DNA of 32,247 nt. Source: Nitrospinae bacterium CG11_big_fil_rev_8_21_14_0_20_56_8 (GTDB taxonomy: Bacteria; Nitrospinota; Nitrospinia; Nitrospinales; VA-1). Positions 3,373 to 32,247 of this stretch are shown one piece after another (position 1 is the first letter of the stretch; each line of letters starts with the position of its first letter). The notes under the pieces were generated by a model. It was not told the origin of the DNA and made no database searches. It saw only the letters and a list, made by a program, of their open reading frames with translations. The position numbers and the translations under genes are program-made. The stretch covers positions 1 through 32,247 of the forward strand of contig PCWF01000189.1 of NCBI GenBank assembly GCA_002796165.1, written 5' to 3'.

Positions 3373-3414
3373 GTGAATTTTCCTTGGGTGAAGGGATGGC
3401 AAAACATAATGTCG

Positions 3415-5123: not shown

Positions 5124-5223
5124 AGTGAGTACCGAACGGTTGAACCAGGTTCATGTGGCCGGCGCAGTGTTTCCACCGATGGGATTTTGGTTTCGCGGGT
5201 CCCACACGGGAATTCCGCGGACC

Positions 5224-6219: not shown

Positions 6220-6222
6220 GGC

Positions 6223-8423: not shown

Positions 8424-8437
8424 TCCCTTAAACTCCC

Positions 8438-9496: not shown

Positions 9497-9550
9497 GGTT
9501 TAAATCTCCCTTTGTTTCAGGATTCAAGGATGGAATGGAAAACCGGGCCT

Positions 9551-13549: not shown

Positions 13550-14083
13550 TCAGTTTTTATGCCGGCACTCGAATTTCTTGTCGGTGATCCAGGTGATCTC
13601 AAGGTAAGCGGGCAAGCGGGTTTCTTTGTTGAGCAGGGCGGAATTGATCTGTTGGTCCGTCAACCCAACCGCATCCGTCAAATCGGCCCCTTTAAGCTCC
13701 GCCTCCTCAAGATTGACGTTGGCAAGATTGGCGCAGGTAAGATCTGCCAGGGAGAGGTCGGCATCGGCCAGGTTGGCGCCGGAGAGATTGGCTCCGGAAA
13801 GGTTGGCGGATCGGATGTCCGCTTCATTCATATCGGCTCCGGAAAGGTTGGCCTCCCTTAGGTTGGATTTGCTGAGCTTGGATTTGCTCAAGTCGGCTTT
13901 TTCCAGATTGGCCCGGCTCAGGTTGGCGAAGAACAGATTGGCGTAACTGAGGTCTGCTTCGTTGAGGTTTCCTCCGCTGAAGTCGGCGTGGTCAAGGTTT
14001 CCGCCGCTCAGGTTGGCTTTGACGAGGTTGTGTTTGGATTTTTCGGCTTGTTCCCGTTCGGCTTTTCTTAATTCTTCCGTCAT
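13550..14083 (-). CDS. Pentapeptide-repeat protein
   Basis: 177-aa ORF. Residues about 20-135 are uninterrupted A(D/N)LxX pentads (ANLSGGNLDHADFSGGNLNEADLSYANLFFANLSRANLEKADL...). No signal peptide is visible. The plus-strand ORFs here are mirror artefacts of the repeat. Confidence 0.85.
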   Translation of the reverse strand: MTEELRKAEREQAEKSKHNLVKANLSGGNLDHADFSGGNLNEADLSYANLFFANLSRANLEKADLSKSKLSKSNLREANLSGADMNEADIRSANLSGANLSGANLADADLSLADLTCANLANVNLEEAELKGADLTDAVGLTDQQINSALLNKETRLPAYLEITWITDKKFECRHKN

Positions 14084-16567: not shown

Positions 16568-16970
16568 AATTTTTGCCGCCGATGTTTTGAGGTTAGACAA
16601 ATGGTCATGAAGCCCCGAGTCTTGAACCGATACATACAAAAATTGCAGTTTTGGAAGATCCCTGAAGAGAAAGGAAACCCCGGATTAATTAATTCAATAT
16701 AAAACCAAACGGACTCTTCAGGGGGCTAAAGGTATTGAGTTATGATTCGCGTACGTTTTCAGCCCCTGCGGCAAAGCCATAGGGCCGGAGAATGGCGATT
16801 TGAAAAGAGGCCTAAGAATCTTGCAGGAGAATGAATTCCCCCCTTAGTTTAATTATCGTTCAAAATCCCCTTTTCCTAAACTATTTATTAAACGGCAGAC
16901 TACCTTTATTTCCCAAAACTTAAGGTCTTTAGCTTAATTCATACAGGGATAAAGTGCCAATATTTTTTCC

Positions 16971-17332: not shown

Positions 17333-18358
17333 ATGAATCCTCAAAAGGTTTATTTTAAGTATCTTGGGATTCGCCTGGTCAGGCGGATTTTGGAAAATCC
17401 GATATTTTCCCAAAATCCTTATTTCAGAGATTTTGTAAGGAAATTATCCCTGAGGAAAGCCAAAAGGCTTCAGAAAAGAACCTTTGACGGTTCCTTTGCC
17501 CCTTGGGCGGTTGAAATCGAACTCACCAATGGATGTAACATCGAATGTGTCTTTTGCCCGAATCCCGAGCATGTCCGCCCCAAGGGGATGATGTCCCTGG
17601 AAACGTTCCAACGGATCGCAAGTGAAATTAAAAAATTAAACGTTCCTCATATTATCATCAGCGGATTTGGCGAGCCCACTCTGGACAAAAATCTTGTAAG
17701 CAAACTTGAACATTTTAAGACCATAGGAATTTCAAGCGAGGTGATGCTCGTCAGCAACGGGACCATATTCAATCCTGAAATCCTGAAGGAAATCTGCGAC
17801 CGTGAACTTGTGGATATTATCAGCATCAGCGTGGATGCCGGGGATGAGGAATCGTACGTTGAAATCCACAAAAAGGAGGGATATGCAAAGATCCGGGCAA
17901 GTGTGGAATATATCGCCGAGTTGAAACTGAAGAAGGGTTCTTCCAAGCCTAAGGTGGATTTGCGCTATAAGGATTTTTATATGAACAAAGGCCAAATCCA
18001 CAAATTCATCGAAACGTTTTCGTCACATTCCGACAAGATGTCGATTTACGCCAATATATGCACCTGGCCCGGGGCGGATTCCAAAATCAAGGCAGTCGAT
18101 AAAGAAACCCTGATCAAAATTGTATGTCCCAGCCTGTATCAGGGCATGAGAATCAACTGGAATGGCGATGTTGTTATTTGTCCGCAGGATTACGAAGCCC
18201 ACGCCATCTGCGGCAATATCCTCAAGGAGTCGATGTTGGAAATTTGGAATGGCGAGGTTCTAAGCAAATACCGGAAAATGCATGAAAACTACCAATTTAA
18301 TGAAATCCCGGTCTGTAAAGATTGCGATATCAACACCCACCTCTTGGTTCCCCTTTAA
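17333..18358 (+). CDS. Radical SAM enzyme with Cys-rich C-terminal SPASM/twitch-like extension
   Basis: 341-aa ORF. The cluster motif is TNGCNIECVFC (CxxxCxxC). The C-terminal region has CPSLYQGMRINWNGDVVIC (CX12GX4C), then ICGN and VCKDC just before the stop. This is only part of the full seven-Cys SPASM pattern. Confidence 0.8.
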   Translation: MNPQKVYFKYLGIRLVRRILENPIFSQNPYFRDFVRKLSLRKAKRLQKRTFDGSFAPWAVEIELTNGCNIECVFCPNPEHVRPKGMMSLETFQRIASEIKKLNVPHIIISGFGEPTLDKNLVSKLEHFKTIGISSEVMLVSNGTIFNPEILKEICDRELVDIISISVDAGDEESYVEIHKKEGYAKIRASVEYIAELKLKKGSSKPKVDLRYKDFYMNKGQIHKFIETFSSHSDKMSIYANICTWPGADSKIKAVDKETLIKIVCPSLYQGMRINWNGDVVICPQDYEAHAICGNILKESMLEIWNGEVLSKYRKMHENYQFNEIPVCKDCDINTHLLVPL

Positions 18359-19766: not shown

Positions 19767-21140
19767 ATGAAACTTTCAGTAATCGGTTTGGGAAAATTGG
19801 GTGCGTGCACAGCGGCGTGTTTCGCTTATAAGGGGATACCCACCATCGGGGTTGATATCAATGCCGATTCTGTAAACGCGATCAATGCGGGCAAGGCGCC
19901 AGTATTTGAACCGCGTCTTCAGGAGTTGATCCAGGCCGCGGGCGACCGGCTTGAGGCGACTCTGGATTTTGACAGGGCCATCCAGGATTCAGAGGTTACG
20001 TTTATTGTGGTGCCCACCCCCAGTAGGGATGACGGACATTTTTCCAATGCTTTTGTCGAAGAGGCGCTGGCCGACCTGGCCTCGGCGTTAAAGAAAGTCA
20101 GAAAAAAGTATCATCTGTTTGTCATCACATCGACGGTTTCCCCCGGGGTGATTGAAGGAGAATTGATTCCCCTGGTGGCATCGGTTTCGGGAAAAAAGGT
20201 CAACAAGGATTTTGGTTTTTGCTACAACCCCGAATTCATTGCCCTGGGAAGCGTGATTTCGGATTTTCTGAATCCGGATCTCGTACTGATTGGCGAAAGT
20301 GACCCGAAAGCCGGGGATCTGCTTTCCCGGATTTATGAAAAAGTTTGCGATAACAAGCCCCAGATCTCCCGCATGTCGATTCCCAGTGCGGAAGTCACCA
20401 AAATCAGCCTGAATTCGTTTGTCACTATGAAAATCAGTTTTGCCAACACGCTTGCGAATATTTGTGAAAGGATTCCCGGCGCCAACATCGATGACATCAC
20501 GCGGGCTTTGGGAGCGGACAAGCGCATTTCTCCCTTTTACCTCAGAGGAGGCTTGAGTTTTGGCGGGCCCTGTTTCCCCCGTGATAATAAGGCGTTTTCC
20601 GCGTTTGCCCGGGAGGCGGGGGTGGACGCCTTTCTGGCCCAGGCCACCGATGAGGTCAATGAGGTTCAGGTGGACCGGGTGGCCGAGAAAATCCTCCAGG
20701 ACCTTCCCAATCACAAAAAGCCGGCGGTTGCCATTCTGGGTTTGAGCTACAAACCCAATACCCCTGTTATCGAAGAGTCTCCCAGCATCAAGATCATTGA
20801 AAAACTGCTTCAGGCCAAGGACCTGCTGGTCGAGGTTTATGATCCGGTGGCCCTTGAAAATACCAGGGCCCATTTTGGCGACCGGGTCCGATATTCTACC
20901 TCGCTGGAGGAGTGCGTGGGGTCCTCTCCCATTTGCGTGGTGGCCACGCCGGACAAGGCGTTTCGGAATTTGCGCCGCGAATGGTTCCGTTTCCAACCCA
21001 CGACGATTTTCGATTGCTGGCGGATTCTGGATCGGGTTGCCCTGGGAAATGGAATTCGCTATCTTCCCCTCGGGATTTCGGTGCAAAACAGTCCTGGGGT
21101 TTTTGATCGGCCCGTCAAATTGGTCGGCAAAAGCCGGTGA
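19767..21140 (+). CDS. UDP-glucose/GDP-mannose dehydrogenase family nucleotide-sugar 6-dehydrogenase
   Basis: The ORF track starts at a TTG at 19746. I prefer the ATG at 19767 (MKLSVIGLGKLG), which is preceded by AGGGTGG. Motifs are VIGLGKLG, NPEFIALGSVISDFLNPDLVLIG and the catalytic-Cys block FGGPCFPRDNKA. Confidence 0.9.
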   Translation: MKLSVIGLGKLGACTAACFAYKGIPTIGVDINADSVNAINAGKAPVFEPRLQELIQAAGDRLEATLDFDRAIQDSEVTFIVVPTPSRDDGHFSNAFVEEALADLASALKKVRKKYHLFVITSTVSPGVIEGELIPLVASVSGKKVNKDFGFCYNPEFIALGSVISDFLNPDLVLIGESDPKAGDLLSRIYEKVCDNKPQISRMSIPSAEVTKISLNSFVTMKISFANTLANICERIPGANIDDITRALGADKRISPFYLRGGLSFGGPCFPRDNKAFSAFAREAGVDAFLAQATDEVNEVQVDRVAEKILQDLPNHKKPAVAILGLSYKPNTPVIEESPSIKIIEKLLQAKDLLVEVYDPVALENTRAHFGDRVRYSTSLEECVGSSPICVVATPDKAFRNLRREWFRFQPTTIFDCWRILDRVALGNGIRYLPLGISVQNSPGVFDRPVKLVGKSR

Positions 21141-21167
21141 AGGTGTTTTCTGGGAGAAAAAGGTGAT

Positions 21168-22253
21168 ATGGAAAACAACGTTACCCCTTTGGTCAGTATA
21201 GTAAACGTTACCTGGAATGGCAGGAGTCTTCTTGAAAAACATCTTCCCAGCCTGGCCGGTCTCCATTATTCCAATTTTGAAGTGATTATTGTTGATAATG
21301 GGTCCACGGATGGAAGCGTGGAATTCGTCCGCGAACATTATCCTCGGTTCAAAATCGTTGCCAATGAAATCAACCTGGGTACCGCCGAGGGGAGCAATGT
21401 GGCCATCCCCGTTGCCCGGGGTAAGTATATTTTCTGGGTCAGTAACGATATGGAATTCGATCCCGATATCGTCGATCATCTTGTGGCGCGTTGCGAATCG
21501 GATCCCCGGATCGGGATTTGCACGGTTAAAATGAGGAGAATAAAGGACGAGCAGTTGGTCGATGAGATCGATAGCGTGGGGGCCGATCTGGACATTTTCG
21601 GGTTTCCGGCCTCGCGGGGAATCGACGAAGAGGACCGGGGCCAATTGGACTATTCGACGAACGTCTGTTTTTCCTTTGGCGGCGCCATGATGATCCGGAA
21701 AGACGTTCTTGAAATTACGGGAGGTTATGACCCCTCCTTTCTCACCCTTGCAGACGATATCGACCTTTCCTGGAGAGTCTGGTTGGCTGGTTACCGAGTC
21801 GTGGTGGAACCGAAGGCGTTTCTCTATCACCGGGTTAGTGCGACTTTGGGCAAGACGCATAATCGGGCGCAGAAGCGGTTTATCTCGGAGCGGAACACTT
21901 TGCGCACGTTGTTAAAGAACTATTCCACCGGGGTCCTCTTTTTTATCCTTCCGGTTTATTTCCTTCTTTTGATAATGGAAATGACGTTTTTCCTTGCTGT
22001 CGGGCGTCCTCAGATTGCGGTTTCCGGCATAAGGGCAATTCGATGGAACCTTGACCGATTGAAAGAAACCCTGCTCCTCCGAAAAGAGGTTCAGTCTTTC
22101 CGCAAGATTGGGGACGCGAAGATCCTCTCCATGCGCAAAAAATTCCCGGAGAAATTCAGGATCTTCCTCGATTATCTGAAATACCGCAATACCCCTCGCT
22201 GGAAAGGATATATGGGAACCGGAATCGGCGCCCAATCTTTGAAAAATGGCTGA
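21168..22253 (+). CDS. Glycosyltransferase family 2 (WbbL/rhamnosyltransferase-like), C-terminal hydrophobic segment
   Basis: 361-aa ORF with VSIVNVTWNGRSLLEKHLPSL...FEVIIVDNGSTDGS, DDIDLSWRVWLAGYRVV, and then a hydrophobic VLFFILPVYFLLLIMEMTFFLAV. Confidence 0.85.
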   Translation: MENNVTPLVSIVNVTWNGRSLLEKHLPSLAGLHYSNFEVIIVDNGSTDGSVEFVREHYPRFKIVANEINLGTAEGSNVAIPVARGKYIFWVSNDMEFDPDIVDHLVARCESDPRIGICTVKMRRIKDEQLVDEIDSVGADLDIFGFPASRGIDEEDRGQLDYSTNVCFSFGGAMMIRKDVLEITGGYDPSFLTLADDIDLSWRVWLAGYRVVVEPKAFLYHRVSATLGKTHNRAQKRFISERNTLRTLLKNYSTGVLFFILPVYFLLLIMEMTFFLAVGRPQIAVSGIRAIRWNLDRLKETLLLRKEVQSFRKIGDAKILSMRKKFPEKFRIFLDYLKYRNTPRWKGYMGTGIGAQSLKNG

Positions 22254-23523
22254 CCTCCTGCAGATTCTGAAATCAAAAACCGTTTTGGTCGTGGGGCAAC
22301 TCAAGACCAGCCGGACGGAAACTCTTGAAGAGTATTTAAAGGGGAAGGTCGGGGGCCTTTACGTATTTGGATTTTCCAGCCCGATGTCCAGGAAAGGGTT
22401 CGGGCGTCTCACGCAATACCATTCCGCAGAAAAAGTCCGGGAAAAACCGCTGAGTATTTTCTCCACTCCCAATCATAAGGGAACCACCGGCCCTGCGGTT
22501 CTGATTTCATTTTTTCTGACGGCGCTCCAGTTTTTTCGATGTTTTTTCAAGCTTCCTTCCCGGCCCGAGGTTTTTATCGGCGTGGCCACCTATTCTACGG
22601 TGCTTGGGATTCTCCTGAAAAAATTCAATTGTGTGGATCGTGTTATTTTTTACTGTCTTGATTATTCCGTTCCTTCCACGGCTCATTGGTTCGCAAATAT
22701 GTTTATCCATGCTCTGCGGCGGGTGGATGCCTGGGTGATCAAGAATTCCGATATGGTCTGGGACATTACTTCCCGAATTGGCGAGGCCAGGAAAAATTTT
22801 GATCGAATCCCTCTGGAATCGTATAACCCGATTGTGGTCCCCTTGGGATACGGAGAGGGGATAGAAAGATTTCGCCCGTTTGAGGAGAGGGAGAGGTGGA
22901 CCCTGGGGTTTGTGGGCACCCTTTCGTCCAACCAGGGGTTGGAGCTGATTGTGGATTCTCTTCCGGAGTTGAAATTAAAAATTCCTCAAATCAAATTGAG
23001 GATCATTGGGGACGGTCCGGCGTGGGAAAATATTCAGATGATGGTTCGGGAAAGGGGGGTTCAGGACTGCGTTGTTTTTCACGGATTTATACAGGACGAT
23101 GAAGAGGTTTATGACCTTCTGTCCCATTGTATGATCGGGTTGGCGGTGTGGACGGGAGGGGCGGATGATAATTCTCATTTTGCGGACCCTGGGAAGCCGA
23201 AACTTTATGCCCTCCTTGGGCTTCCGATTGTTATCACGGATGCCCCTCAAGTGTCCGAAGTGATAAAAGAAACCAATGCGGGAAGGGTGATCCGGTATGA
23301 TCGGAAGGCCTTTGTCAATGCGGTGGAGGAAATCCTCCTTTCAACGGAGGAACTGGGAAAATGCCTGGAGGGGCTCAGGTCATTTAAAAGCTACTGCAGA
23401 GCGGAACAGATTTTTGACGAGGCGACAACGGAGACCATGAAACGTTGGAAACAATTTACCGATAAACCTGCTTCCCCGAAATTTACAGGATTTTCCCTCC
23501 AGTCGGATTTAAACAGAAGATAA
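22246..23523 (+). CDS. Glycosyltransferase, GT-B fold (GT4-like)
   Basis: 425-aa ORF. Its ATG overlaps the upstream GT2 stop by 8 nt (ATGGCTGA). The C-terminal Rossmann half is LGFVGTLSSNQGLELIV...LRIIGDGP...VVFHGFI...GKPKLYALLGLPIV. Confidence 0.75.
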   Translation: MADLLQILKSKTVLVVGQLKTSRTETLEEYLKGKVGGLYVFGFSSPMSRKGFGRLTQYHSAEKVREKPLSIFSTPNHKGTTGPAVLISFFLTALQFFRCFFKLPSRPEVFIGVATYSTVLGILLKKFNCVDRVIFYCLDYSVPSTAHWFANMFIHALRRVDAWVIKNSDMVWDITSRIGEARKNFDRIPLESYNPIVVPLGYGEGIERFRPFEERERWTLGFVGTLSSNQGLELIVDSLPELKLKIPQIKLRIIGDGPAWENIQMMVRERGVQDCVVFHGFIQDDEEVYDLLSHCMIGLAVWTGGADDNSHFADPGKPKLYALLGLPIVITDAPQVSEVIKETNAGRVIRYDRKAFVNAVEEILLSTEELGKCLEGLRSFKSYCRAEQIFDEATTETMKRWKQFTDKPASPKFTGFSLQSDLNRR

Positions 23524-26500
23524 ATTCTCCGGTCCTAATTCGGGGTTTGGTTTAAGTCCTTCCGTCCTTCTTGGAATCATGCAAACGTGAATCCCGATCC
23601 CCACGAGCAAGAGATATATTCCATCCACGGCTAATACCTCCGCCAACTGGATTTTCCCGATTTCATACAGCCAGAAACCCAGGAATACGGAAAAGGGAAA
23701 TGCAAGAATGTACTTGGTCTCATATTTTTCATAAATCAGCGAACTGAGGGTTGGCCAGTATTTGTCGACCCGGTCCCGTATGGCCAGTACGAAACTCCGC
23801 CAAGCCAAAATACTGAAAAGCGGTGCAAAAGAAAAAAACGATTCTTCCAGGCCGAGTTCTCTTGAAAAGTGGTACTCATGCAACCCAAATGAAATTCCCG
23901 TCCATACCAGGGTTTGCCCAGGGTAGCCGAAGAGCCAATTCATGATGTTGTTCTTCCAGTAAAGATAAAAGTAGCCGAGTGAAATTAAAGGAAGGATCAT
24001 TTCAGACCGTTTGGCTCCAGTTACGCCTCCCAGATTCGCCATAACATATCCGATGACCAGCAGACTGAAAATCAAGAGGGCGGTGGGCGTGTCCGGATTT
24101 TGTGGGAAGAGGAATTTGTTTCTGGGTAAACCCCTTTCGGAGGGATCGGTCCTCCAGCGGAATTCATGCCAAACCACCCCTAAAACCAAAATCGCGGTGG
24201 ACCAAAAAAAGGTGGAACCCACCTGAATGGGCCGCCCGAGAACGGTGACGATGCTACCGCTTGAATTTCCCGCCAGCAACAATCCGGGTACGAGGGCAAT
24301 AAAACCGATTGCCCGGTTGAGGGTGACTCGGTTGTGGAGAGCCCATTGATACCAACGATTGAGTTGGTTACGAGCCGTTTCAAATTGCCTGGAAAATTTT
24401 TGCGTGAACATACGTGCAATTTTGAATGTCCCAAGTCGGTACAAAAGAACGATTATTAAGGCGATAACCGTTACTATTTGGAGGTTGAGCACCGCATTCG
24501 AGGGGGGAGATCCCGAGCCCCATTGGTTTTTTGAGGTTGCTTTGACTTTTCCGGAATAAAAGATGGAAAGAGATACGGATTTTTGAAGGAGGAGTTGCTG
24601 AACTCGGAAAAAAGGATGCTCCCAATAATGAAGCCGGGTTTTGTTTGTGGTCTCATCATAGTTGATGTCCAGATCGTTCAACTGGATCCAAAACCCATTG
24701 CCCAACAGGGTTTGGGCTTCAATATTCTTGAAGGAATCGGGCAAGGGGTAAATATACTGGTTTTCAAGATGGACCATATGATGTCGGAGCAGATCTTTTC
24801 TGGGTGAAAACAAGTGACTCCCGCTGAGTTTGGCTTTAATGCTGAATTCTGCGAGGCCCAGGTGCTCGATAAAGCTTTCTGATGCGGATCCCAGGTCTAC
24901 GGACCATTGAATTTTTTTAACCTGATCGTCGGGATGGATTTGTTCAAAAAAGATTTCGTTTAAAGGGATGTAAAAATTACTTTCGAGAGTGTTCCATGTT
25001 GGCGTAACAATACTACAATGGACGTTTGAGTTGGAGCCAGAACCGGTGACCAGGGAGAGTTTCAACCAGCAGGGAGAATCGAAATTGAGATCTTTGGGAA
25101 GTTTATAGGTCACCCATAGGCCCGACACCTTGCTGAAAGGAACGTTGATAGGTGTTTCCCAATGCACCGCCGGAAATTTGTTTTTCTCCCGGTCATACTT
25201 AACTGCCGCAATAAGGTTGTTGTTTTTGAATGAAATCCCAATCTCCGGGCTTAAACCCGGGGTAGTAGTGGGTTCAAGAACCAGGTTTTCGTCGAACAGA
25301 AGAGGCTCGTCCAATGCATCCTTCTTGGTTATATAAGTGGGCGTGAATAGAATAATTTCATTTAAGGTCAGGGTGGAGGATTCATTCTTAAAATTAAACC
25401 GAAGAGTAAATCCGAGCAAACGTCCGGTTGGCAACTCCAATTCATTGGCCTTCAGAGGCAAAATGGCTCGAGACTTCTGGGGGCCGGCCTCATGAACGGG
25501 AAAAAAATCTATCGAGGATATTTCCTGGATCCCCTCGCTAATATCAATAAAGAATTTGGTATCCGGGGTGACTTGGATATCTTTTGAAAAATGCATTTCC
25601 AGCCATTCTCCTTCCCCCTTGACCACCAATCCTTTTTGATTTTGGTCGAATCTGTCGAATTTATTCTTATAGGTCAGGTCTAAAAATTTTGGTCCATAAC
25701 TGATATTCAGGGGGTAGCGGATTTTCCCGAAAGAAATCTTGTTTGATTTTAACCCTATGGGGTCAAAAATCTGTCGTGAGTCATTTTCGCTTCTTACTTT
25801 TTCAAGAGTGAAAGATATTCGCCCTTTCAGATTTCCTGTAATAAAGTTCTGTGAAGTATTTTGTTTGGCAAGGGGCAAGGAAGTTTTCTTGGTGCGCGAT
25901 TCGAGGGAAGTTGAAATGCCCGGGTCTTCAGGTTTTTTTGAACTCTTAGAAGTAACTTTTTTATTTTTTCCGGTGTTGGCTTCCCCGGTGGACGATTCCA
26001 TGGAGGTAGAAGGGGCAGTCTCTTCGGGTTTTTCTAAATTTTTAGAAATAACTTTTTCATCGTTGCTTGCCAGGGAAAGCACCGGGTTGCCAAGGGCCCG
26101 GATGGCCATAAGCGGAAATGAGTCCCCCCTTTTTACTTTAACCAGAATTTGTTTGTCTGGAAGAATGCTGTGGGAACCTTGGATTTCAATTTTAAAAGGA
26201 CCTTCCAGATTATAAGTCAAGATAAATTCCTGATCCGATTTTGCTGGAGCGGGGTCCATGATCTGGGCATTGACAACGCCCTTTTTAGAAAGGAACAACA
26301 GATCAACCACCAGTTTTTCCCATTCCGATTTGACCCTGAAATATCCCCCTTCCTTGCCAGTCAGTTTTAAGCCGCGAGGACCTGAAAAAACCGACTGGTA
26401 TCCTATTGTCTCCGGGACATTCTTGAATCCGAATTGAAAATTGATTTTAGGCCATTCAACTTTTTCCTCTTCTATTTTGGGAGGTAAAAATGGGCCTCCC

Positions 26501-27951
26501 AGCCGCGCAATCAATTTTTGCGCGGGCTCAAGGTAAGTGGGGATGCCTTCGAAAAAATTGGTCTGGTTCTCATATGTTTTGGGAGGGGAAAGGTAATTGA
26601 TCATTTCTGAATTGTGCAGACGAAAGCCTCCAAATTGGCTCAGCTTTTCGGGTCTGGCGTACAGGGTCGCCCCAAAGAAACGGTGGTCCCAGGGGAGTTG
26701 GTCTGATAACTCTTTTATGTCCACCGTGAACCGCTTCAGTTTGGTTGAGAGAGAGGTGACTTTGGCCGAAAGGATTTTTGTAGGAAGCTCATTCAGTTTT
26801 CTGAATCCGGGGATTTCCGATTCGGCGCCGGAGGAAACGCCTTTTCCGATTGCGGCCAAATGGGGTAGGGCATTAAATACAATTTTATTGAGGCCTTTTT
26901 GGTTGGCGACATCGAGGGCCCTTCCATGAACAAAAACGATGACTTCCTCGAGAATAACCCCCTTGCCGGCACCCACTTTGTTGAAAAATTCCTTAAGCTG
27001 AATTCTCCAGACAGGTTCTTTGAATTCTTTTACCCTCTCCTGCGAAAAGACGGTTTTATCAATGACTCGCGATTCTCCTTTCCCGCCGATATTCTTCAAT
27101 CGCAAATTGATGGTATGCATTACGGTCGTCCCCGCAAAATGAAAATCAATCGTTTCTACGGGCGTCAGATCCATGTTCAGCCTTCGCTGAATAACCGTCC
27201 ATATCCGATCCTGTGTGTAATACCAGGAACCATCCTCGATATCGAGATTGAAAGCGCGGTCCAAAATGTACTTCAGTCCCTTTTTTCGCCAGAGAGCCGC
27301 GCCCACATCAATTACCTGATAGGGAAGGATCTCACTTTTTGTGGCGCTGATTCCCAGGATGGTGTTCTTTCTTGTGGGGTTTTTAGGAGACCCCGCAATC
27401 TGGAAATACAAGCGGGTGGGGTTTTCGGGGTTTAGGTCCTCATAGTCGAAATGAACTTCAGAAACCTTGGTGCTGTAAAAATTATTATCGTCGGGATGAG
27501 AAACCAGGGGTAGCTTGGTTAGACCTCCATTATTGGGCAACCATATTTTCTGATAAGGTTTCTTGTCACTTCCTGGTGAGTCCCTTAATAGCAAAGGGCG
27601 GGATTCATAGAGGATATCCTTTTCGTCCTGCCTGGCTCTTAAATTGGCCCAAACCTTATAAGTGCCGGGGGCGATCAGATCCTTGTTTTCTGCTTTTGAA
27701 AAGATAGGAACCCTGCTGTCTTCATAGGGGAAAGTACGGAGGGGGGAAGCTTCAGCAATCGAAAATGCCAAAACTACAGCGGTCAGACCCAAACCGATCC
27801 ATGCCTGTACGATGATGCAAATTACCGATTTCCATAGGAGTTCCGGCCCTGTTATAGAGTCTCTATTGAGGGAAGTGAATTTTGATTTGAATTCTGAAAT
27901 CAGGATTCCACCGTGAAGTGCCCAACCCGGAACCGGATCGGGGAAGAGCAA
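23509..27951 (-). CDS. Very large membrane protein of unknown function (N-terminal anchor, ~1085-aa ectodomain, C-terminal polytopic domain)
   Basis: A continuous 1480-codon ORF. The only start codon in the ORF before residue 260 is the TTG at 27951, and it has no SD. A hydrophobic helix spans residues about 41-66 (SVICIIVQAWIGLGLTAVVLAFSIA). The last roughly 328 residues (about 23512-24495) contain 8-9 hydrophobic segments. I recognise no family motif. Confidence 0.8.
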   Translation of the reverse strand: MLFPDPVPGWALHGGILISEFKSKFTSLNRDSITGPELLWKSVICIIVQAWIGLGLTAVVLAFSIAEASPLRTFPYEDSRVPIFSKAENKDLIAPGTYKVWANLRARQDEKDILYESRPLLLRDSPGSDKKPYQKIWLPNNGGLTKLPLVSHPDDNNFYSTKVSEVHFDYEDLNPENPTRLYFQIAGSPKNPTRKNTILGISATKSEILPYQVIDVGAALWRKKGLKYILDRAFNLDIEDGSWYYTQDRIWTVIQRRLNMDLTPVETIDFHFAGTTVMHTINLRLKNIGGKGESRVIDKTVFSQERVKEFKEPVWRIQLKEFFNKVGAGKGVILEEVIVFVHGRALDVANQKGLNKIVFNALPHLAAIGKGVSSGAESEIPGFRKLNELPTKILSAKVTSLSTKLKRFTVDIKELSDQLPWDHRFFGATLYARPEKLSQFGGFRLHNSEMINYLSPPKTYENQTNFFEGIPTYLEPAQKLIARLGGPFLPPKIEEEKVEWPKINFQFGFKNVPETIGYQSVFSGPRGLKLTGKEGGYFRVKSEWEKLVVDLLFLSKKGVVNAQIMDPAPAKSDQEFILTYNLEGPFKIEIQGSHSILPDKQILVKVKRGDSFPLMAIRALGNPVLSLASNDEKVISKNLEKPEETAPSTSMESSTGEANTGKNKKVTSKSSKKPEDPGISTSLESRTKKTSLPLAKQNTSQNFITGNLKGRISFTLEKVRSENDSRQIFDPIGLKSNKISFGKIRYPLNISYGPKFLDLTYKNKFDRFDQNQKGLVVKGEGEWLEMHFSKDIQVTPDTKFFIDISEGIQEISSIDFFPVHEAGPQKSRAILPLKANELELPTGRLLGFTLRFNFKNESSTLTLNEIILFTPTYITKKDALDEPLLFDENLVLEPTTTPGLSPEIGISFKNNNLIAAVKYDREKNKFPAVHWETPINVPFSKVSGLWVTYKLPKDLNFDSPCWLKLSLVTGSGSNSNVHCSIVTPTWNTLESNFYIPLNEIFFEQIHPDDQVKKIQWSVDLGSASESFIEHLGLAEFSIKAKLSGSHLFSPRKDLLRHHMVHLENQYIYPLPDSFKNIEAQTLLGNGFWIQLNDLDINYDETTNKTRLHYWEHPFFRVQQLLLQKSVSLSIFYSGKVKATSKNQWGSGSPPSNAVLNLQIVTVIALIIVLLYRLGTFKIARMFTQKFSRQFETARNQLNRWYQWALHNRVTLNRAIGFIALVPGLLLAGNSSGSIVTVLGRPIQVGSTFFWSTAILVLGVVWHEFRWRTDPSERGLPRNKFLFPQNPDTPTALLIFSLLVIGYVMANLGGVTGAKRSEMILPLISLGYFYLYWKNNIMNWLFGYPGQTLVWTGISFGLHEYHFSRELGLEESFFSFAPLFSILAWRSFVLAIRDRVDKYWPTLSSLIYEKYETKYILAFPFSVFLGFWLYEIGKIQLAEVLAVDGIYLLLVGIGIHVCMIPRRTEGLKPNPELGPENLSSV
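25897..26088 (-). repeat. Imperfect tandem duplication (96-nt period) inside the 1480-aa ORF encoding a Ser/Thr/Lys-rich linker
   Basis: The units start at 25897 and 25993. By hand count, 53 of the first 72 ungapped positions are identical. The encoded peptides are KPEETAPSTSMESSTGE... and KPEDPGISTSLESRTKK... Confidence 0.6.
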
Positions 27952-28503
27952 TGAATAGAGGCGTTATTTATGTTTCAAGAGAGGTTTCAGGTGAACGGCC
28001 GCTTCCCTTGAGCAAATTAACATAATGTTGCGTTCCCAAAGGAATTAGGATAATCTTTAACTCGATTTTCTTAGATAGCGATGCACTGTGGGTTTTAACT
28101 TGGACCCATGGACCCAATGTCCCGAGTTGTCGAAACTGATTTCAATGTGAGTTTCGGGTTGGCTCAACTAACCGGAACAACCGATCGCGGTTGAATCCGA
28201 TTTCCGGTGGGACCATTTTCGCTTCCTATAATACCGATAATAATATTTAAATCAAGATTCACTTTTCTGGGGTGGGTTGTTAAATCCGCTCGGTGATTCG
28301 GAAATTACCTTAAGGGAACCATTAAAAGGAGGGATCATTCCGCCTGAGGGTTTTTGTGTGGTTGCAATCCTCCCCTGGACACTTCAAAGGTTTTTTAACC
28401 CGCGCATCCCTGATCAATAACCGGTCGAGAAAATTCCCATCCCTAAAACCGTGTCCTCGAAAATCTCATCCAACTTAGGATTAATGCTATTGGAGCTCCA
28501 CTT

Positions 28504-30357
28504 ATGAGCGAGGGTACAATGCAGGTTGGCGGAAAAAACAAGCATTTTTACCCGGTTTTATTTTTACTGTTTGTTGCGCCCGCCATTTATGCGTCCCCCG
28601 ACTTTTTCACCCCCGATAAATACCTGAATATAGGCGATTTCGAATATCGCTTCCAGATTAATGATGTCTGGTTGGACGATTATTTCTACGCCTGGAATGC
28701 CCAGACCGATGATGGGCTTGGGGGGAAGAATTTGCCGCGTTTCCCCGTGCAGTTGTTTTTTTATTCAATCTTTGCAGGCTTGAAATTTATCGGTCTCCCC
28801 GATTGGATTTTGAATCGATTGTTTTTGCTCCTTCCGGCGTGGCTCCTTTTATTTTCCACCTATAGTTTTTTAAATTTTAACCTGACCGGTTACCTGAAAT
28901 ACGCGATGTCTGCATCAGGCGCGTTTTTTGTTCTGGTGGCCCCTCCGCACACATTTATTGCTCCCCTGTATCACCTCATACTTTCCGGAACCATCATGAT
29001 TCTTTGCGGGGTGCAACGGTACCTCGTTTCTCCCAAGGGATCCTACCTTTGCTTGATGGCCATAGGCCTTTTTCTTAGCTCCATCATGCCGAGATATCCC
29101 TATCTGGGATTTGTTTTGTCGTTAATATATGTGGTGGCCTGGTATTTGCTGAAACGTGGCGACGAGGACCTACTGAAACTTCCCGATCTATTCAAAGGTA
29201 TTTTCATTTTTGCCGGCATTGCCCTATTGCTTAACCTGAATATGATTTTGCCCTTGATCGTATTTTTCGGGGATCACTCCTCACGCGAATTGATGGTAAC
29301 CGAAGATGCGCTGAATTACCGGCTTGCCCTTTTCAACATGTTTCGGGGGTATACCGGGATTTTCAGTTCGATGAGGTTGATCGATTCCACCCCGGGAAGA
29401 ATTTACGAGTATTATTTTTCCCACAAAATCATCCGCCCGTTCACCTTTATCATTCCTCTTTTAATAGCCTTCGCTTTATTGAGGGTTTTTGTTAAGGGAG
29501 AAAACAAGCGTGTTCAGGCAATAGGGATCTTGCTTGTTTTTTCATGGGTCATCAATTTGATTTTTGGATCGGACTTCTATGCTTTGCTGGTAGGCATTAT
29601 TCCCGGGTTTTGGATTTTTAATAATCCAACCTACTATGTATCGATGATGGCCTTTTTTTCCGCGGTTCTCCTCACGTATGTTCTGCTGGAGATGGTTGAT
29701 TTTCTGATCCAGAAATGGGGCGAAAGGTGGAAACGATGGGTAGAAGCCGGAGGAATTGTCTTTTTTATCTCAATAATATTTATCCATTGCGGTTATTTTA
29801 TTGTGGATAAAATTCCCGAATCTCGGAGATTGTACGCGACTGCCGAATGGTTCGATCATGCCACCGGCGCCCGAGTTCCCTACTTTGAAATACCCCAAGA
29901 GTATTTCGACCTGAAAAAGACGATGGCTTCCGATCCGGAAGCCCGGGTGATGATTCTTCCCGAACTGTTCGGTTATACCCGGTACACTTGGTATCCCGTA
30001 TTGGCCATGCCTGAAATTCTGCATCAAATGACCACTTTGCGCCTGGGGGCGACTTCGGAGTTTGATTCGGCGTTTATAACAAATACAATTAATACTCTGA
30101 TGACCAATGTGGACAAGGCCCTTTTTTTGATGGGAAAGGGCAATTACAATTATATTTTTCTCCATAAGGATCTTCTCCCCCACTTTGGTCCGGTAAGATG
30201 GAAAAAATGGGCCGCCATACTTGGAGTCTCGAACTGTTTTCCAAAAGTAATGGATAACGACCATTTTATTTTCTACAAAATTGATTATTCATGCCGCCAA
30301 GTGAAGAAAGAGGCAGGTATCGGAACATCCATTGAAACCCCGTCAAAACCCTTGTGA
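28504..30357 (+). CDS. Polytopic membrane protein, GT-C-like architecture (function unproven)
   Basis: 617-aa ORF with GGAG 8 nt upstream of the ATG. It has about 12-13 hydrophobic segments over residues 15-450, then a roughly 170-aa hydrophilic C-terminal domain. The first predicted external loop is acidic (NDVWLDDYFYAWNAQTDDGLGG). Confidence 0.75.
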   Translation: MSEGTMQVGGKNKHFYPVLFLLFVAPAIYASPDFFTPDKYLNIGDFEYRFQINDVWLDDYFYAWNAQTDDGLGGKNLPRFPVQLFFYSIFAGLKFIGLPDWILNRLFLLLPAWLLLFSTYSFLNFNLTGYLKYAMSASGAFFVLVAPPHTFIAPLYHLILSGTIMILCGVQRYLVSPKGSYLCLMAIGLFLSSIMPRYPYLGFVLSLIYVVAWYLLKRGDEDLLKLPDLFKGIFIFAGIALLLNLNMILPLIVFFGDHSSRELMVTEDALNYRLALFNMFRGYTGIFSSMRLIDSTPGRIYEYYFSHKIIRPFTFIIPLLIAFALLRVFVKGENKRVQAIGILLVFSWVINLIFGSDFYALLVGIIPGFWIFNNPTYYVSMMAFFSAVLLTYVLLEMVDFLIQKWGERWKRWVEAGGIVFFISIIFIHCGYFIVDKIPESRRLYATAEWFDHATGARVPYFEIPQEYFDLKKTMASDPEARVMILPELFGYTRYTWYPVLAMPEILHQMTTLRLGATSEFDSAFITNTINTLMTNVDKALFLMGKGNYNYIFLHKDLLPHFGPVRWKKWAAILGVSNCFPKVMDNDHFIFYKIDYSCRQVKKEAGIGTSIETPSKPL

Positions 30358-30364
30358 GGTCCTC

Positions 30365-30574
30365 GTGCATTCCCTAACGATTTGTAAACCGTTTTTGCGA
30401 TTTTGGTTTTTATTTTTAATCGTATCCATGATGGTTTCAGGAGACGGCTGGGCGGCGGGAAAATCTGAACCGGAGATTTTAAATGATCTGGTGATGGACC
30501 GTTTGTTTGAAAAAAAGGAATTTGTAAATCCAGTTTTTTTTTGTTCAATTCCTGTGACGAGCCATGCCAGTTAG
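30365..30574 (+). CDS. Short ORF encoding a signal-peptide-like N-terminus; probable 5' half of the next gene
   Basis: The GTG at 30365 has GAGG (30356-30359) 5 nt upstream, and that SD overlaps the stop of the 617-aa gene. The peptide is HSLTICKPFLRFWFLFLIVSMMVSGDGWAAG.... The frame ends shortly after the T9 tract. Confidence 0.35.
   Translation: MHSLTICKPFLRFWFLFLIVSMMVSGDGWAAGKSEPEILNDLVMDRLFEKKEFVNPVFFCSIPVTSHAS
30534..30542 (+). repeat. T9 homopolymer at the junction of two overlapping ORFs in different frames
   Basis: Counted directly as cag-ttttttttt-gttc. Confidence 0.95.
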
Positions 30575-31296
30575 CCCAACTGGTACTGAAATCTTTTGGT
30601 TTCGAGATGATCGGAGCGGAAACCCAAATGAGGAATCTTTTCGCGATCCTGTATGGAGACCTGGGATTAATCGGCCTTCCTGAAATTCACGTTCACAAAA
30701 TCAACCCGACCAAATTTCTGTATTCGATCAAGAACGCCAAAGGTTCATTTTATATTCAGTTGAAGGAAGGGTATTCACCGGACTGGAAGGCATACCTGAT
30801 TCCCCAGCATGGAGTTGAAGGTGCAGAAAGCCCCATTCATTCTTCGGGTGTGGACCACCCCTTGATTACCTTTGGTGCTGATGAATTCATGATGAAACTT
30901 GGCAGAGAGGAATGCGGGGGGGAGAATTGCCGCACCGATTTTGAATGGGTATTGAGTGGAGAAATGAACAGGAGTTTAGTTTCCCGCCTGATAAGAGCGA
31001 TATTGGGGACGGATGGAATTGTGCAATGGCCGGAAAGTTTTCATTGGAATGAGAGCGGCCTTCATAATGTATGGTTTCTCGATTTGAGCTATTTGGAGGA
31101 TTTAAATGAGAAGACGGATCCCTTGTATAAAAAGAACCCGGATGGGACCTACGACCTCCATGTTTTAGTTGAATATTCCTACCAGAAATTCAGCTATTTA
31201 GGTTTGGTGAGCACGGTCGCAACGTTTGTATTCATTGGGATTTATTTCATTTTAGAGATGAGAACAACCCGGTCCTCACAAAAGACGGTCCCCTGA
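30541..31296 (+). CDS. Hypothetical exported/anchored protein (3' part of a probably split gene)
   Basis: 251-aa ORF. Its TTG start lies inside the T9 tract, and the first ATG is at 30607. The C-terminal anchor is LGLVSTVATFVFIGIYFIL followed by a basic tail. EGYSPDWKAYL is reminiscent of the C-terminal extracytoplasmic domains of YfhO-like proteins, but this is a weak, memory-based similarity. Confidence 0.6.
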   Translation: MFNSCDEPCQLAQLVLKSFGFEMIGAETQMRNLFAILYGDLGLIGLPEIHVHKINPTKFLYSIKNAKGSFYIQLKEGYSPDWKAYLIPQHGVEGAESPIHSSGVDHPLITFGADEFMMKLGREECGGENCRTDFEWVLSGEMNRSLVSRLIRAILGTDGIVQWPESFHWNESGLHNVWFLDLSYLEDLNEKTDPLYKKNPDGTYDLHVLVEYSYQKFSYLGLVSTVATFVFIGIYFILEMRTTRSSQKTVP

Positions 31297-31476: not shown

Positions 31477-32247
31477 ATGGACGAAAGAATTCAGATAAAC
31501 GGGGGTCGGGGGATAACGATGGTCACGGGTTTGATCCTTGTGGTCATGGCCACCTCCAAATACAGATCCTTACACACCTCCGTGTATGATTTAGGGGTTT
31601 TTTTTTCGAACTTATATCAGATTTCCATATTGGGGATCTGGAAGGGGATCTTTGTAGGGCACGTTCAACCGTTTCTCTTGATATGGGCCTTCATTTATGG
31701 TGTCTTCCCGGTAGAGTTTGCTCCTTACATACTTCTGAGCCTGCAAAGTTTGATGCTAGTTTTGCCGGGGTTCTGGTTGGCGAGGCAATATGGGATTTTG
31801 GGAGTTCTGGCCCTGGTTCTGTATTTCCCGATCTGGTACAACGCTCTCTTCGATTTTCATACGGACCATTTAGTTGTTCCCCTCCTGTTCTGGTTTTTCC
31901 TGCTGGTTGAAAAAAAGCAATATCGCCTTGCCGCGGTTCCCGCTCTGACCCTGGCCCTGGTCAAGGAGCCGTACGCACTTCAAACGGTGGCCTGTGGAAT
32001 ATTTCTTCTAATATGCAAGAAGGAGTATCGGACGGGGACCCTGATCGCCTTGGCGGGCATTGTCTATTTTTTGCTGTGCACCAAAGTTTTGATCCCCTAT
32101 TTTTCCCTGGGAGGCGGGAGCGAAGTTTTAGGGACATCGGCCTATTCCTGGTTGGGGAGCGGAATTTTTGAGATGATGCACCATGTTCTGACAAGTCCTT
32201 TTGCGGTTTTAAAAGAAATTTTGTGGAGCAGGGAAAAGTTATACTAT
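31477..32247 (+). CDS. Polytopic membrane protein, DUF2079-like, truncated by window end
   Basis: This ORF is not in the supplied track. My own translation from the ATG at 31477 is open for 257 codons to the window edge: MDERIQINGGRGITMVTGLILVVMATSKYRSLHTSVYDLGVFFSNLYQ...GHVQPFLLIWAFIYGVFP.... It has at least 6 hydrophobic segments. The pattern of TM1, then YDLG, then H-x-x-P matches my memory of DUF2079. Confidence 0.65.
   Translation, partial: MDERIQINGGRGITMVTGLILVVMATSKYRSLHTSVYDLGVFFSNLYQISILGIWKGIFVGHVQPFLLIWAFIYGVFPVEFAPYILLSLQSLMLVLPGFWLARQYGILGVLALVLYFPIWYNALFDFHTDHLVVPLLFWFFLLVEKKQYRLAAVPALTLALVKEPYALQTVACGIFLLICKKEYRTGTLIALAGIVYFLLCTKVLIPYFSLGGGSEVLGTSAYSWLGSGIFEMMHHVLTSPFAVLKEILWSREKLYY

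What the first reader, a model, noticed from the sequence alone, without database searches (positions are those of the whole stretch)
23509..27951. Orphan 1480-aa membrane protein with an N-terminal anchor, a giant ectodomain and a C-terminal 8-9 TM domain
Seen: this is the longest gene in the window. It has one N-terminal helix (residues about 41-66). About 1085 residues of mixed, beta-rich-looking sequence follow, split by a Ser/Thr/Lys-rich linker. The last 328 residues form a polytopic block (for example VLNLQIVTVIALIIVLLY, TALLIFSLLVIGYVMANLGGV and VDGIYLLLVGIGIHVCMI). I recognise no catalytic motif.

It is transcribed divergently from a GT-C-like gene and convergently with the cytoplasmic GTs.

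Inference: in a locus that lacks Wzy, Wzz and Wza-type genes, this protein may supply polymerase, ligase-like or scaffold and export functions. The membrane domain would act on a lipid-linked glycan and the ectodomain would bind or measure the polymer. It is a good candidate for an undescribed component.
Basis: partly seen in the sequence, partly recalled or inferred. Interest (0 to 1): 0.7.

Follow-up and report, generated by a model that had tools for sequence, protein, structure and literature searches.

The report
Uncharacterised glycan-locus membrane protein family
The 1480-residue gene is real and belongs to a rare, unnamed protein family that nearly always sits next to a GT-C-type membrane sugar transferase and lipid-sugar flippases, so it is probably a new sugar-chain-holding partner of that machinery rather than a polymerase.

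Summary
The ORF (23509-27951, minus strand, 1480 aa) and its described layout are confirmed. It has an N-terminal hydrophobic helix, an ectodomain of about 1085 residues with a Ser/Thr/Lys-rich linker, and a C-terminal helical membrane block.

It is not a strict orphan. An exhaustive HMMER search found 70 homologous cluster representatives. None is named and none has a Pfam domain. They come from Nitrospinota, Nitrospirota, Desulfobacterota and Beta/Gammaproteobacteria.

AlphaFold2 models built with the family alignment show two things:
- Residues about 760-1070 form tandem beta-sandwiches. Their best PDB matches are CBM22, CBM51, reelin repeats and BcsB.
- The C-terminal block has 9 TM helices (pLDDT 85) and no PDB fold match (best E = 1.3).

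The block shows no relation to WaaL/Wzy or GT-C. Its conserved motifs (N1212, WHExRW, YFYxPW, WR, WP) face the cytoplasm. Short-form homologues lack TM2-5.

In about 10 of 13 informative homologue loci, the gene directly upstream, or one gene away, is a DUF2079 or PMT_2 GT-C protein. Wzx-like flippase(s) and GT4 genes usually follow.

Best reading (about 0.4): a non-catalytic, glycan-binding membrane partner or co-polymerase-like guide for the DUF2079 GT-C and Wzx. The polymerase/ligase idea is not supported.

The parts
23509..27951 (-). Full CDS of the 1480-aa protein ('BIG' family member), TTG start, stop included
   Evidence: The identical protein P0001 was called on Logan/ENA contigs.
27754..27825 (-). 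Residues 43-66: N-terminal hydrophobic helix, either a signal anchor or the h-region of a long signal peptide with a possible AEA|S cleavage site
   Evidence: KD peak of 2.44 at 43-61. Homologues P0002, P0003 and P0011 start with classical signal peptides.
27340..27753 (-). Residues 67-204: conserved N-terminal ectodomain segment (G96, Y98, W137, D169 of the 'DYEDL..ENP' motif)
   Evidence: Family alignment A1 and its conservation list.
26860..27339 (-). Residues 205-364: the ~160-aa 'R module' (W221, K224, Y228, R232, D240, W243, Q255-R256-R257, D269, E336). It occurs once here and 1-5 times in homologues.
   Evidence: Local HMM of the module against the 70 family sequences; conservation.
26032..26859 (-). 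Residues 365-640: middle ectodomain with the invariant GGPF(L) (485-489) and E499-W500. Not modelled.
25717..26031 (-). Residues 641-745: Ser/Thr/Lys-rich low-complexity linker. It is not conserved in sequence among homologues.
   Evidence: Composition; pLDDT <50 at the start of model 1; homologue sequences.
24727..25674 (-). Residues 760-1075: tandem beta-sandwich (CBM-like) domains with the conserved Cys pair C961/C979 and W1016
   Evidence: AF2 model pLDDT is mostly 80-96. Foldseek PDB hits are CBM22 tandem (E 2.7e-6, prob 1.00), reelin, SGBP-B, CBM51 and BcsB. Conservation.
23557..24501 (-). Residues 1151-1465: C-terminal 9-TM helical block (TM1 1151-1172; TM2-5 are long-form-specific; TM6-9 are the conserved core)
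   Evidence: AF2 TM-only model has pLDDT 85.3 and pTM 0.70. No PDB fold match. Topology from the positive-inside rule. Short forms lack HMM positions 430-565.
24154..24171 (-). Residues 1261-1266: W-H-E-F-R-W motif at the cytoplasmic end of TM3 (H1262 27/35, R1265 27/35 conserved)
22246..23523 (+). GT4 glycosyltransferase, convergent with the target and overlapping its 3' end by 15 nt. It is the counterpart of the GT4 that follows the Wzx genes in homologue cassettes.
   Evidence: Pfam Glyco_trans_1_4 / Glycos_transf_1; cassettes.
28504..31296 (+). Divergently transcribed 617-aa polytopic protein (28504-30357) plus a 251-aa protein with a C-terminal TM (30541-31296). Together they resemble one AftD/DUF6541-like GT-C gene found whole in homologue loci.
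   Evidence: No Pfam hit. 9 KD TM segments. The 251-aa protein aligns to the C-terminus of the L009 810-aa protein at E 2e-6. Relatives hit GT-C_AftD/DUF6541 weakly. Five in-frame stops lie between the two ORFs.
31477..32247 (+). N-terminal 257 codons of the DUF2079 (GT-C-type) gene, which runs off the window. It is the conserved partner gene of the family.
   Evidence: Pfam DUF2079 at E 2.2e-21. The full 521-aa gene is on contig L001. The ortholog alignment has invariant DLG, LFDFHxDH and a Cys pair.

Best explanation
The gene encodes an inner-membrane protein of a previously undescribed family.

Shown:
- A periplasmic arm of about 1085 residues that includes a chain of beta-sandwich, carbohydrate-binding-module-like domains.
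- A C-terminal helical bundle with no solved structural relative. It has 9 TM helices here and a 5-TM core (TM1 plus TM6-9) across the family.
- In most homologue loci with readable flanks, the gene is co-transcribed directly after, or one gene away from, a DUF2079 or PMT_2 GT-C-type membrane glycosyltransferase. Start and stop codons are often coupled. It usually also lies directly before one or two Wzx-type flippases and a GT4. In this window the same genes are split into divergent and convergent units.

Inferred mechanism:
- Cytoplasmic GT4/GT2 enzymes build a polyprenyl-linked sugar unit, and Wzx flips it.
- The DUF2079 GT-C, together with an AftD-like second GT-C, extends or transfers the glycan on the periplasmic face.
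- This protein docks to that machinery through its membrane bundle. It uses its lectin-like arm to hold, guide and possibly size the growing chain.
- In this reading it is a non-catalytic co-polymerase or guide subunit. It would be analogous to BcsB beside BcsA, or to the built-in CBM domains of EmbB/AftD.
- The cluster of conserved residues on the cytoplasmic face (N1212, WHExRW, YFYxPW, WR, WP) would be a docking surface for Wzx or for the cytoplasmic transferases.
For: Family:
- 70 homologous representatives exist, with homology over the full length.
- The family occurs in Nitrospinota, Nitrospirota, Desulfobacterota and Beta/Gammaproteobacteria.

Synteny:
- DUF2079 is immediately upstream in L002, L003, L004, L006, L009, the P0077 locus, L010 and L018.
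- In L011 DUF2079 is one gene away, with a Wzx between.
- PMT_2 is upstream in L005.
- A GT-C-like polytopic protein with no Pfam hit is upstream in L008 and L019.
- In L019 the pair stands alone among unrelated genes.
- 4-8 nt start/stop overlaps with DUF2079 and Wzx occur in several loci.
- Initiating phosphoglycosyl transferases lie in the same cassettes.

Fold:
- Model 1 (pLDDT 78.5) has beta-sandwiches that match tandem CBM22, CBM51, SGBP-B, reelin and BcsB.
- The conserved Cys pair C961/C979 fits a periplasmic location.

Topology:
- K+R counts in family loops are 7.7/2.3/1.5/3.2 for the odd loops against about 0.5 for the even loops.

DUF2079:
- It shows GT-C hallmarks, including an invariant Asp in the first outer loop.
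Against: - No binding, interaction or phenotype data exist.
- No sugar-binding residues could be identified.
- Foldseek matches are fold-level only (TM-scores 0.1-0.25 for multidomain alignments, 6-11% identity).
- The N-terminal 700 residues were not modelled. They carry strongly conserved polar residues (R232, Q255-R256-R257, D240, D269, E336, GGPF, E499) that could be an enzymatic site.
- The conserved cytoplasmic-face motifs are not explained by a purely periplasmic guide role.
- In this window the gene is not in the canonical operon order.
- At least one locus (L017) showed no GT-C next door.
Confidence: 0.4

Rival explanations
1. It is itself the missing polymerase or ligase. The C-terminal membrane block would be a new catalytic fold that joins flipped lipid-linked units. 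DUF2079 would do something else, such as side-chain decoration.
For: - No Wzy_C, O-ag_pol or WzyE family gene appears in the window or in any of the homologue cassettes, although Wzx and initiating transferases are present.
- The block carries invariant polar residues (H1262, E1263, R1265, N1212) and has a novel fold.
Against: - There is no fold or profile similarity to WaaL/Wzy/GT-C/SEDS.
- The conserved motifs map to the cytoplasmic side, and outer loops are only 3-8 residues long.
- Short-form members lack TM2-5, which hold the H-E-R motif, yet sit in the same cassette.
- DUF2079, with GT-C hallmarks, is a more economical candidate for the periplasmic transfer step.
Confidence: 0.15
2. It is the acceptor rather than a helper. 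In this reading it is a membrane-anchored glycoprotein whose linker or ectodomain is glycosylated by the adjacent GT-C (PMT_2/DUF2079) with flipped lipid-linked sugars, as pilins are by the neighbouring TfpO/PglL gene.
For: - The gene is directly adjacent to PMT_2-type and DUF2079 GT-C genes.
- The protein has a Ser/Thr-rich exposed linker.
- Linkers of variable composition occupy the same position in homologues.
Against: - The linker is not conserved in sequence or S/T content.
- The family conserves a polytopic membrane bundle with cytoplasmic-face motifs, which a passive substrate would not need.
- The cassettes encode whole polysaccharide-type pathways, with an initiating transferase, several GT4s and two Wzx.
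Confidence: 0.15
3. The membrane block is a transport or export module. It would be a channel or flippase-like partner that moves the lipid-linked intermediate or the polymer across the inner membrane, with the ectodomain receiving it.
For: - The conserved residues lie at the cytoplasmic entrance.
- The gene is translationally coupled to Wzx genes.
- BcsB and SIDT1 are among the whole-model fold hits.
Against: - The TM-only model matches no transporter fold.
- The 5-TM short form leaves little room for a pore.
- Dedicated Wzx flippases are already present.
- The neighbouring GT2 has one TM and no processive-synthase features.
Confidence: 0.1

Closest known systems
BcsB, the periplasmic subunit of bacterial cellulose synthase
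   Same: - It is a membrane-anchored, mostly periplasmic protein built from jelly-roll carbohydrate-binding domains.
- It is encoded next to, and works with, a membrane glycosyltransferase and guides the nascent glycan.
- BcsB chains (5eiy_B, 5ej1_B, 9b8i) appear among the fold hits at E about 1e-4.
   Different: - BcsB has a single C-terminal TM helix and flavodoxin-like domains, and it partners a GT2 synthase.
- This protein has a 9-TM bundle (5-TM core) and different modules, and its partner is a GT-C.
- There is no BcsB Pfam hit, and TM-scores are only about 0.1.
C-terminal carbohydrate-binding domains of mycobacterial GT-C enzymes (EmbA/B/C, AftD)
   Same: - Periplasmic CBM-type beta-sandwiches are associated with GT-C transferases that use polyprenyl-phosphate sugars.
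- AftD-like and UbiA genes occur in some homologue cassettes.
   Different: - In Emb/AftD the CBMs are fused to the enzyme.
- Here they are on a separate polypeptide with its own membrane bundle.
- There is no sequence similarity.
Polysaccharide co-polymerases (Wzz/Wzc, PCP family)
   Same: - These are inner-membrane proteins with a large periplasmic domain.
- They are encoded in Wzx-dependent glycan loci and are non-catalytic modulators of chain length.
- The variable number of R modules (1-5) could vary the reach of the arm.
   Different: - PCPs have two TM helices flanking an alpha-helical coiled-coil domain.
- This protein is beta-rich with a polytopic C-terminal block.
- There is no Wzz Pfam hit.
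O-antigen ligase / Wzy polymerase (Wzy_C superfamily)
   Same: Both are polytopic inner-membrane proteins of glycan loci. The role is vacant in these cassettes.
   Different: - There is no Pfam match and no Foldseek match to WaaL-type structures.
- hhalign probability against E. coli WaaL is 0.2%.
- The block lacks a large catalytic periplasmic loop.

Membership tests
Wzy_C / O-antigen ligase / Wzy polymerase | Sequence match to the Wzy_C, O-ag_pol_Wzy or WzyE profiles | tested here: not met
   Pfam and NCBIfam give 0 hits at E<=1 for the target and 0 hits for 18 family members. hhalign of the C-block profile against E. coli WaaL gives probability 0.2%.
Wzy_C / O-antigen ligase / Wzy polymerase | WaaL/Wzy-type helical fold with a large periplasmic loop that carries the catalytic Arg/His | tested here: not met
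   The TM-only AF2 model (pLDDT 85) has no PDB match, best E = 1.3. Outer loops are 3-8 residues long, and the conserved His/Arg lie at the cytoplasmic end of TM3.
GT-C glycosyltransferase | N-terminal polytopic domain with a conserved acidic residue in the first outer loop, and a match to GT-C clan profiles or folds | tested here: not met
   - No GT-C Pfam hit.
- No Foldseek hit to ArnT, PglB, Emb or AftD structures.
- hhalign against the neighbouring DUF2079 gives 0.7% and against the 617-aa protein 0.1%.
- The first outer loop of the block is an 8-residue hairpin with no invariant acidic residue.
Polysaccharide co-polymerase (Wzz/PCP) | Two TM helices flanking an alpha-helical periplasmic domain; Wzz Pfam domain | tested here: not met
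   There is no Pfam hit. The modelled ectodomain is beta-sandwich and the C-terminus has 9 TM helices.
BcsB | BcsB Pfam domain; two jelly-roll plus flavodoxin-like repeats; single C-terminal TM anchor | tested here: not met
   There is no Pfam hit. Foldseek hits to BcsB have E about 1e-4 but TM-scores about 0.1, limited to beta-sandwich parts. The membrane part is a 9-helix bundle.
CBM-like beta-sandwich (fold level only) | Jelly-roll or beta-sandwich domains structurally similar to solved carbohydrate-binding modules | tested here: met
   Foldseek hits are 4xup (CBM22 tandem, E 2.7e-6, prob 1.00), 7js4 (CBM51), 7kwb (SGBP-B) and 6sgf (CBM86, TMt 0.54). The model region has pLDDT 80-96.
CBM-like beta-sandwich (fold level only) | Actual carbohydrate binding | not testable with these tools
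   This requires glycan arrays or ITC with the purified ectodomain.
SID1/CREST-type membrane hydrolases | Beta-sandwich ectodomain plus an 11-TM domain with a conserved His/Asp/Ser metal site | tested here: not met
   SIDT1 (9m8u) hits the whole model at E 2.6e-5 but with TM-score 0.12. The TM-only model does not retrieve it. Only one His is conserved in the block.

The most novel reading that the evidence does not exclude
This family, together with its obligate DUF2079 partner, forms a previously unrecognised type of Wzx-dependent, Wzy/Wzz-independent glycan polymerisation machine in diderm bacteria. The new-fold membrane bundle would be an active part, either catalytic or coupling cytoplasmic synthesis to periplasmic extension. 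The modular beta-sandwich arm would act as a molecular ruler that sets chain length.
Probability: 0.15. Interest if true: 0.85.

Novelty: new variant of a known kind. Interest (0 to 1): 0.6.

Why it matters
Many bacterial surface-glycan loci, especially in uncultivated marine and sediment lineages such as Nitrospinota, lack recognisable polymerase, chain-length and export genes.

This protein defines an unnamed family with no Pfam, NCBIfam, PDB or literature entry. The family is genetically locked to DUF2079, itself an uncharacterised GT-C family, and to Wzx flippases across at least four phyla.

That gives a concrete two-gene unit, DUF2079 plus this protein, to test. It offers a likely function for DUF2079 and a membrane fold with no solved relative.

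If the pair proves to be a polymerase/co-polymerase system, it would fill a gap in annotating 'incomplete' Wzx-dependent pathways.

Tried and rejected
1. Word-indexed homologue searches with the protein and with the 18-sequence profile returned only the protein itself. The exhaustive phmmer search was needed.
A tighter C-terminal sub-clade alignment (A6) worked.
4. PDB sequence searches with the protein and with the profile gave only noise: a flavin reductase at E 0.016 and TRPM2 at E 0.04.
5. I rejected a 'split processive synthase' idea, in which the GT2 would dock on the membrane block and WHExRW would mimic QxxRW. The neighbouring GT2 has one TM, no synthase features, and is not conserved in the cassettes.
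6. An internal duplication of TM2-5 versus TM6-9 is not significant (hhalign probability <1%).
7. Similarity between ectodomain segments of the target itself was not found. The apparent R-versus-M1/M3 hits come from extra R modules of other family members in the alignment columns.
8. Tandem repeats, Rfam families and promoter/terminator scans showed nothing relevant.
9. Literature searches for DUF2079 and PF09852 found nothing functional. A search for Nitrospina glycan papers found nothing relevant.


Full report
**Observation**

The window contains a 4443-nt ORF on the minus strand (23509-27951) encoding 1480 residues, the longest in the window. The TTG at 27951 is the only canonical start before the first hydrophobic segment, and an in-frame stop lies four codons upstream.

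Hydropathy analysis shows one N-terminal helix (43-61), then no hydrophobic segment until residue 1153, then a dense polytopic block to about 1457. Residues 660-760 are rich in K, S and T (15%, 14% and 9%).

The neighbours are also as described. A polytopic 617-aa gene is transcribed divergently (28504-30357). A GT4 (22246-23523, overlapping the target's 3' end by 15 nt) and a GT2 (21168-22253) are convergent. The rest of the window is a sugar-nucleotide and glycan-modification locus. It holds a UDP-glucose dehydrogenase, several epimerases/dehydratases, a DegT aminotransferase, a PglD-like acetyltransferase, a carbamoyltransferase, and three radical-SAM enzymes.

**Not an orphan, but an unnamed family**

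Pfam, NCBIfam and PDB-sequence searches find nothing. The word-indexed protein search finds only the protein itself.

An exhaustive phmmer search of 1.84 billion representatives with residues 281-1480 found 70 proteins with E<=1e-3, 40 with E<=1e-10 and 10 with E<=1e-30. Alignment shows homology over the whole length at 19-26% identity to the target. No member has a Pfam domain. The only names any source gives are 'hypothetical protein', from Candidatus Nitromaritima and a Nitrospinaceae MAG.

Further members were recognised in three ways:
- A Methylophilales genome (CP081940.1) and a Desulfohalobiaceae MAG, found by walking from the neighbouring gene.
- A genome scan that returned Proteobacteria, Gammaproteobacteria, Nitrospinota, Syntrophobacter and Desulfobacteraceae MAGs.
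- Candidatus Magnetomicrobium (Nitrospirota), from the same scan.

The family is therefore rare but spread over at least four diderm phyla.

**Architecture of the family**

Homologues begin with classical signal peptides. The target has a longer n-region and a possible AEA|S cleavage site. Either way the ectodomain is periplasmic.

A module of about 160 residues (205-364 in the target) has strongly conserved W221, K224, Y228, R232, D240, W243, Q255-R256-R257, D269 and E336. It occurs once in the target and up to five times in relatives. A segment with invariant GGPF and E499-W500 follows, and then a variable low-complexity linker.

The AF2 model of residues 740-1480, built with a 35-sequence family alignment, has mean pLDDT 78.5. 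It shows beta-sandwich domains over about 760-1070 and a helical block from 1151. Foldseek against the PDB returns:
- tandem CBM22 (E 2.7e-6)
- reelin repeats
- SGBP-B
- CBM51
- GH101 accessory domains
- BcsB

All are fold-level matches with low TM-scores. A conserved Cys pair (C961/C979) fits a periplasmic disulfide.

**The membrane block**

A TM-only model (residues 1140-1480, 37 sequences) is confident, with pLDDT 85.3 and pTM 0.70. It shows nine TM helices, a long basic cytoplasmic helix after TM1, a short outer beta-hairpin between TM2 and TM3, and amphipathic cytoplasmic helices between TM7 and TM8.

Foldseek finds no PDB match with E<=1e-3. The best is E = 1.3, to GPCRs, with TM-score <=0.27. 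Profile-profile comparison gives 0.2% probability against E. coli WaaL, 0.7% against the neighbouring DUF2079 and 0.1% against the 617-aa neighbour.

Across the family, the odd loops carry 7.7, 2.3, 1.5 and 3.2 K+R on average. The even loops carry about 0.5 and are only 3-8 residues long. This fixes the topology. It places the conserved motifs on the cytoplasmic side: N1212 at the start of TM2, W-H-E-x-R-W at the end of TM3, Y-F-Y-x-P-W after TM5, W1384-R after TM7, and W-P1400 in the amphipathic helices.

A short-form subfamily of about 900-1060 aa lacks TM2-TM5 entirely but keeps TM1 and TM6-9.

These points argue against an outer-face catalytic domain of the Wzy, ligase or GT-C type.

**Genomic context**

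The window's own contig continues beyond the window with DUF2079 (its first 257 codons are window 31477-32247), a Wzx-like Polysacc_synt gene, a methyltransferase, a radical-SAM enzyme and a GT2.

In homologue loci the order is strikingly constant: [AftD/DUF6541-like polytopic protein] - DUF2079 - family member - Wzx (often two) - GT4. The evidence, locus by locus:
- DUF2079 is immediately upstream in L002, L003, L004, L006, L009, the P0077 locus, L010 and L018.
- In L011 DUF2079 is one gene away.
- In L005 a PMT_2 GT-C takes its place.
- In L008 and L019 a Pfam-less polytopic protein with about 9-11 N-terminal TM segments and a soluble C-terminal part takes its place.
- In L019 the two-gene pair sits among unrelated genes.
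- L017 is an exception: no DUF2079 or GT-C-like polytopic gene was detected upstream of the family member.

Start/stop overlaps of 4-8 nt with DUF2079 and with Wzx are common. Initiating phosphoglycosyl transferases (Glycos_transf_4, Bac_transf) occur in the same cassettes. No Wzy, Wzz or Wza family gene was seen in any of them.

The DUF2079 orthologues are 37-50% identical. They have an invariant Asp-Leu-Gly after TM1, an LFDFHxDH motif and a C-terminal Cys pair. From established knowledge, these are the usual hallmarks of GT-C enzymes acting at the outer face with polyprenyl-phosphate sugar donors.

**Interpretation**

Shown:
- A real, conserved, periplasm-facing modular beta-sandwich protein.
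- A membrane bundle with no solved structural relative.
- A tight genetic link to a GT-C (DUF2079) and to Wzx flippases.

Inferred (confidence about 0.4): it is a non-catalytic glycan-binding partner, a co-polymerase or guide, for the GT-C/Wzx machinery. This would be analogous to BcsB or to the fused CBMs of Emb/AftD. The cytoplasmic-face motifs would serve as a docking surface.

Rivals:
- A new-fold polymerase or ligase (0.15).
- A glycoprotein acceptor (0.15).
- A transport module (0.1).

The conserved polar residues of the unmodelled N-terminal half leave room for an enzymatic ectodomain.

**Comparison and novelty**

The protein fails every tested membership criterion for Wzy_C/WaaL, GT-C, PCP, BcsB and SID1-like families. 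It meets only the fold-level criterion for CBM-like beta-sandwiches.

Functionally it resembles known accessory subunits of glycan synthases, so I rate it a new variant of a known kind. It has an uncharacterised family, a membrane fold with no PDB relative, and a conserved partnership that also gives a handle on DUF2079.

Interest is 0.6. It is not yet surprising enough mechanistically for a top score. It is, however, a well-defined and testable unknown in a pathway class where the polymerase and chain-length functions are missing.

Noticed in passing
window 28504-31296 (+): The 617-aa polytopic ORF and the 251-aa ORF (C-terminal TM) are in the same frame, separated by 183 nt with five stops. 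A 48-aa ORF lies in another frame across the gap. The 251-aa part aligns with the C-terminus of single 760-1030-aa GT-C-like genes in homologue loci (E 2e-6). This looks like a split or decayed AftD/DUF6541-like GT-C gene, or a genuine two-gene version.
   Followed up: partly
window 27952-28503: A 552-nt intergenic region lies between the divergent target and the 617-aa gene. It holds one sigma-70-like match on the minus strand (28255-28228) and a perfect 8-bp tandem TGGACCCA x2 at 28101-28116. No Rfam family was found.
   Followed up: no
window 4446-10579 (-): This stretch encodes a PglD-like acetyltransferase, a GFO/IDH/MocA oxidoreductase, a DegT aminotransferase and three epimerase/dehydratase genes. 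This is a bacillosamine- or diamino-sugar-type nucleotide-sugar pathway, so the locus glycan probably contains N-acetylated amino sugars.
   Followed up: no
window 11095-12501 (+), 15083-16639 (-), 17333-18358 (+): Two B12-binding radical-SAM enzymes and one SPASM-domain radical-SAM enzyme are embedded in the glycan locus. Similar radical-SAM genes recur in homologue loci L003, L005, L009 and L013. This suggests unusual sugar methylation or modification.
   Followed up: no
window 1753-3402 (-): A NodU/CmcH-type carbamoyltransferase (Carbam_trans_N/C) lies in the locus, and one is also present next to the homologue cassette in L002. O-carbamoylated glycan is possible.
   Followed up: no
window 13550-14083 (-): A 177-aa pentapeptide-repeat protein (Alr5209/HetL-like by NCBIfam, below cutoffs) sits among the glycan genes. 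Its role is unclear.
   Followed up: no
window 20088-21860 (-): A 590-aa ORF with no Pfam hit lies antisense to the UDP-glucose dehydrogenase and GT2 genes. It is almost certainly a spurious shadow ORF.
   Followed up: partly
locus of P0077 (ENA ERZ1305449, no DNA held): This homologue cassette also carries a GT-C_AftD gene, a UbiA prenyltransferase-family gene and a HAD-methyltransferase fusion. This is reminiscent of decaprenyl-phosphate-arabinose-type donor synthesis.
   Followed up: no
L019 5596-10595: In Candidatus Magnetomicrobium the family member and a 639-aa polytopic Pfam-less protein form an isolated two-gene unit. The flanking genes are unrelated (Mrp antiporter subunit, DHDPS, Orn/DAP decarboxylase, NACHT). 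This is the minimal form of the partnership.
   Followed up: partly
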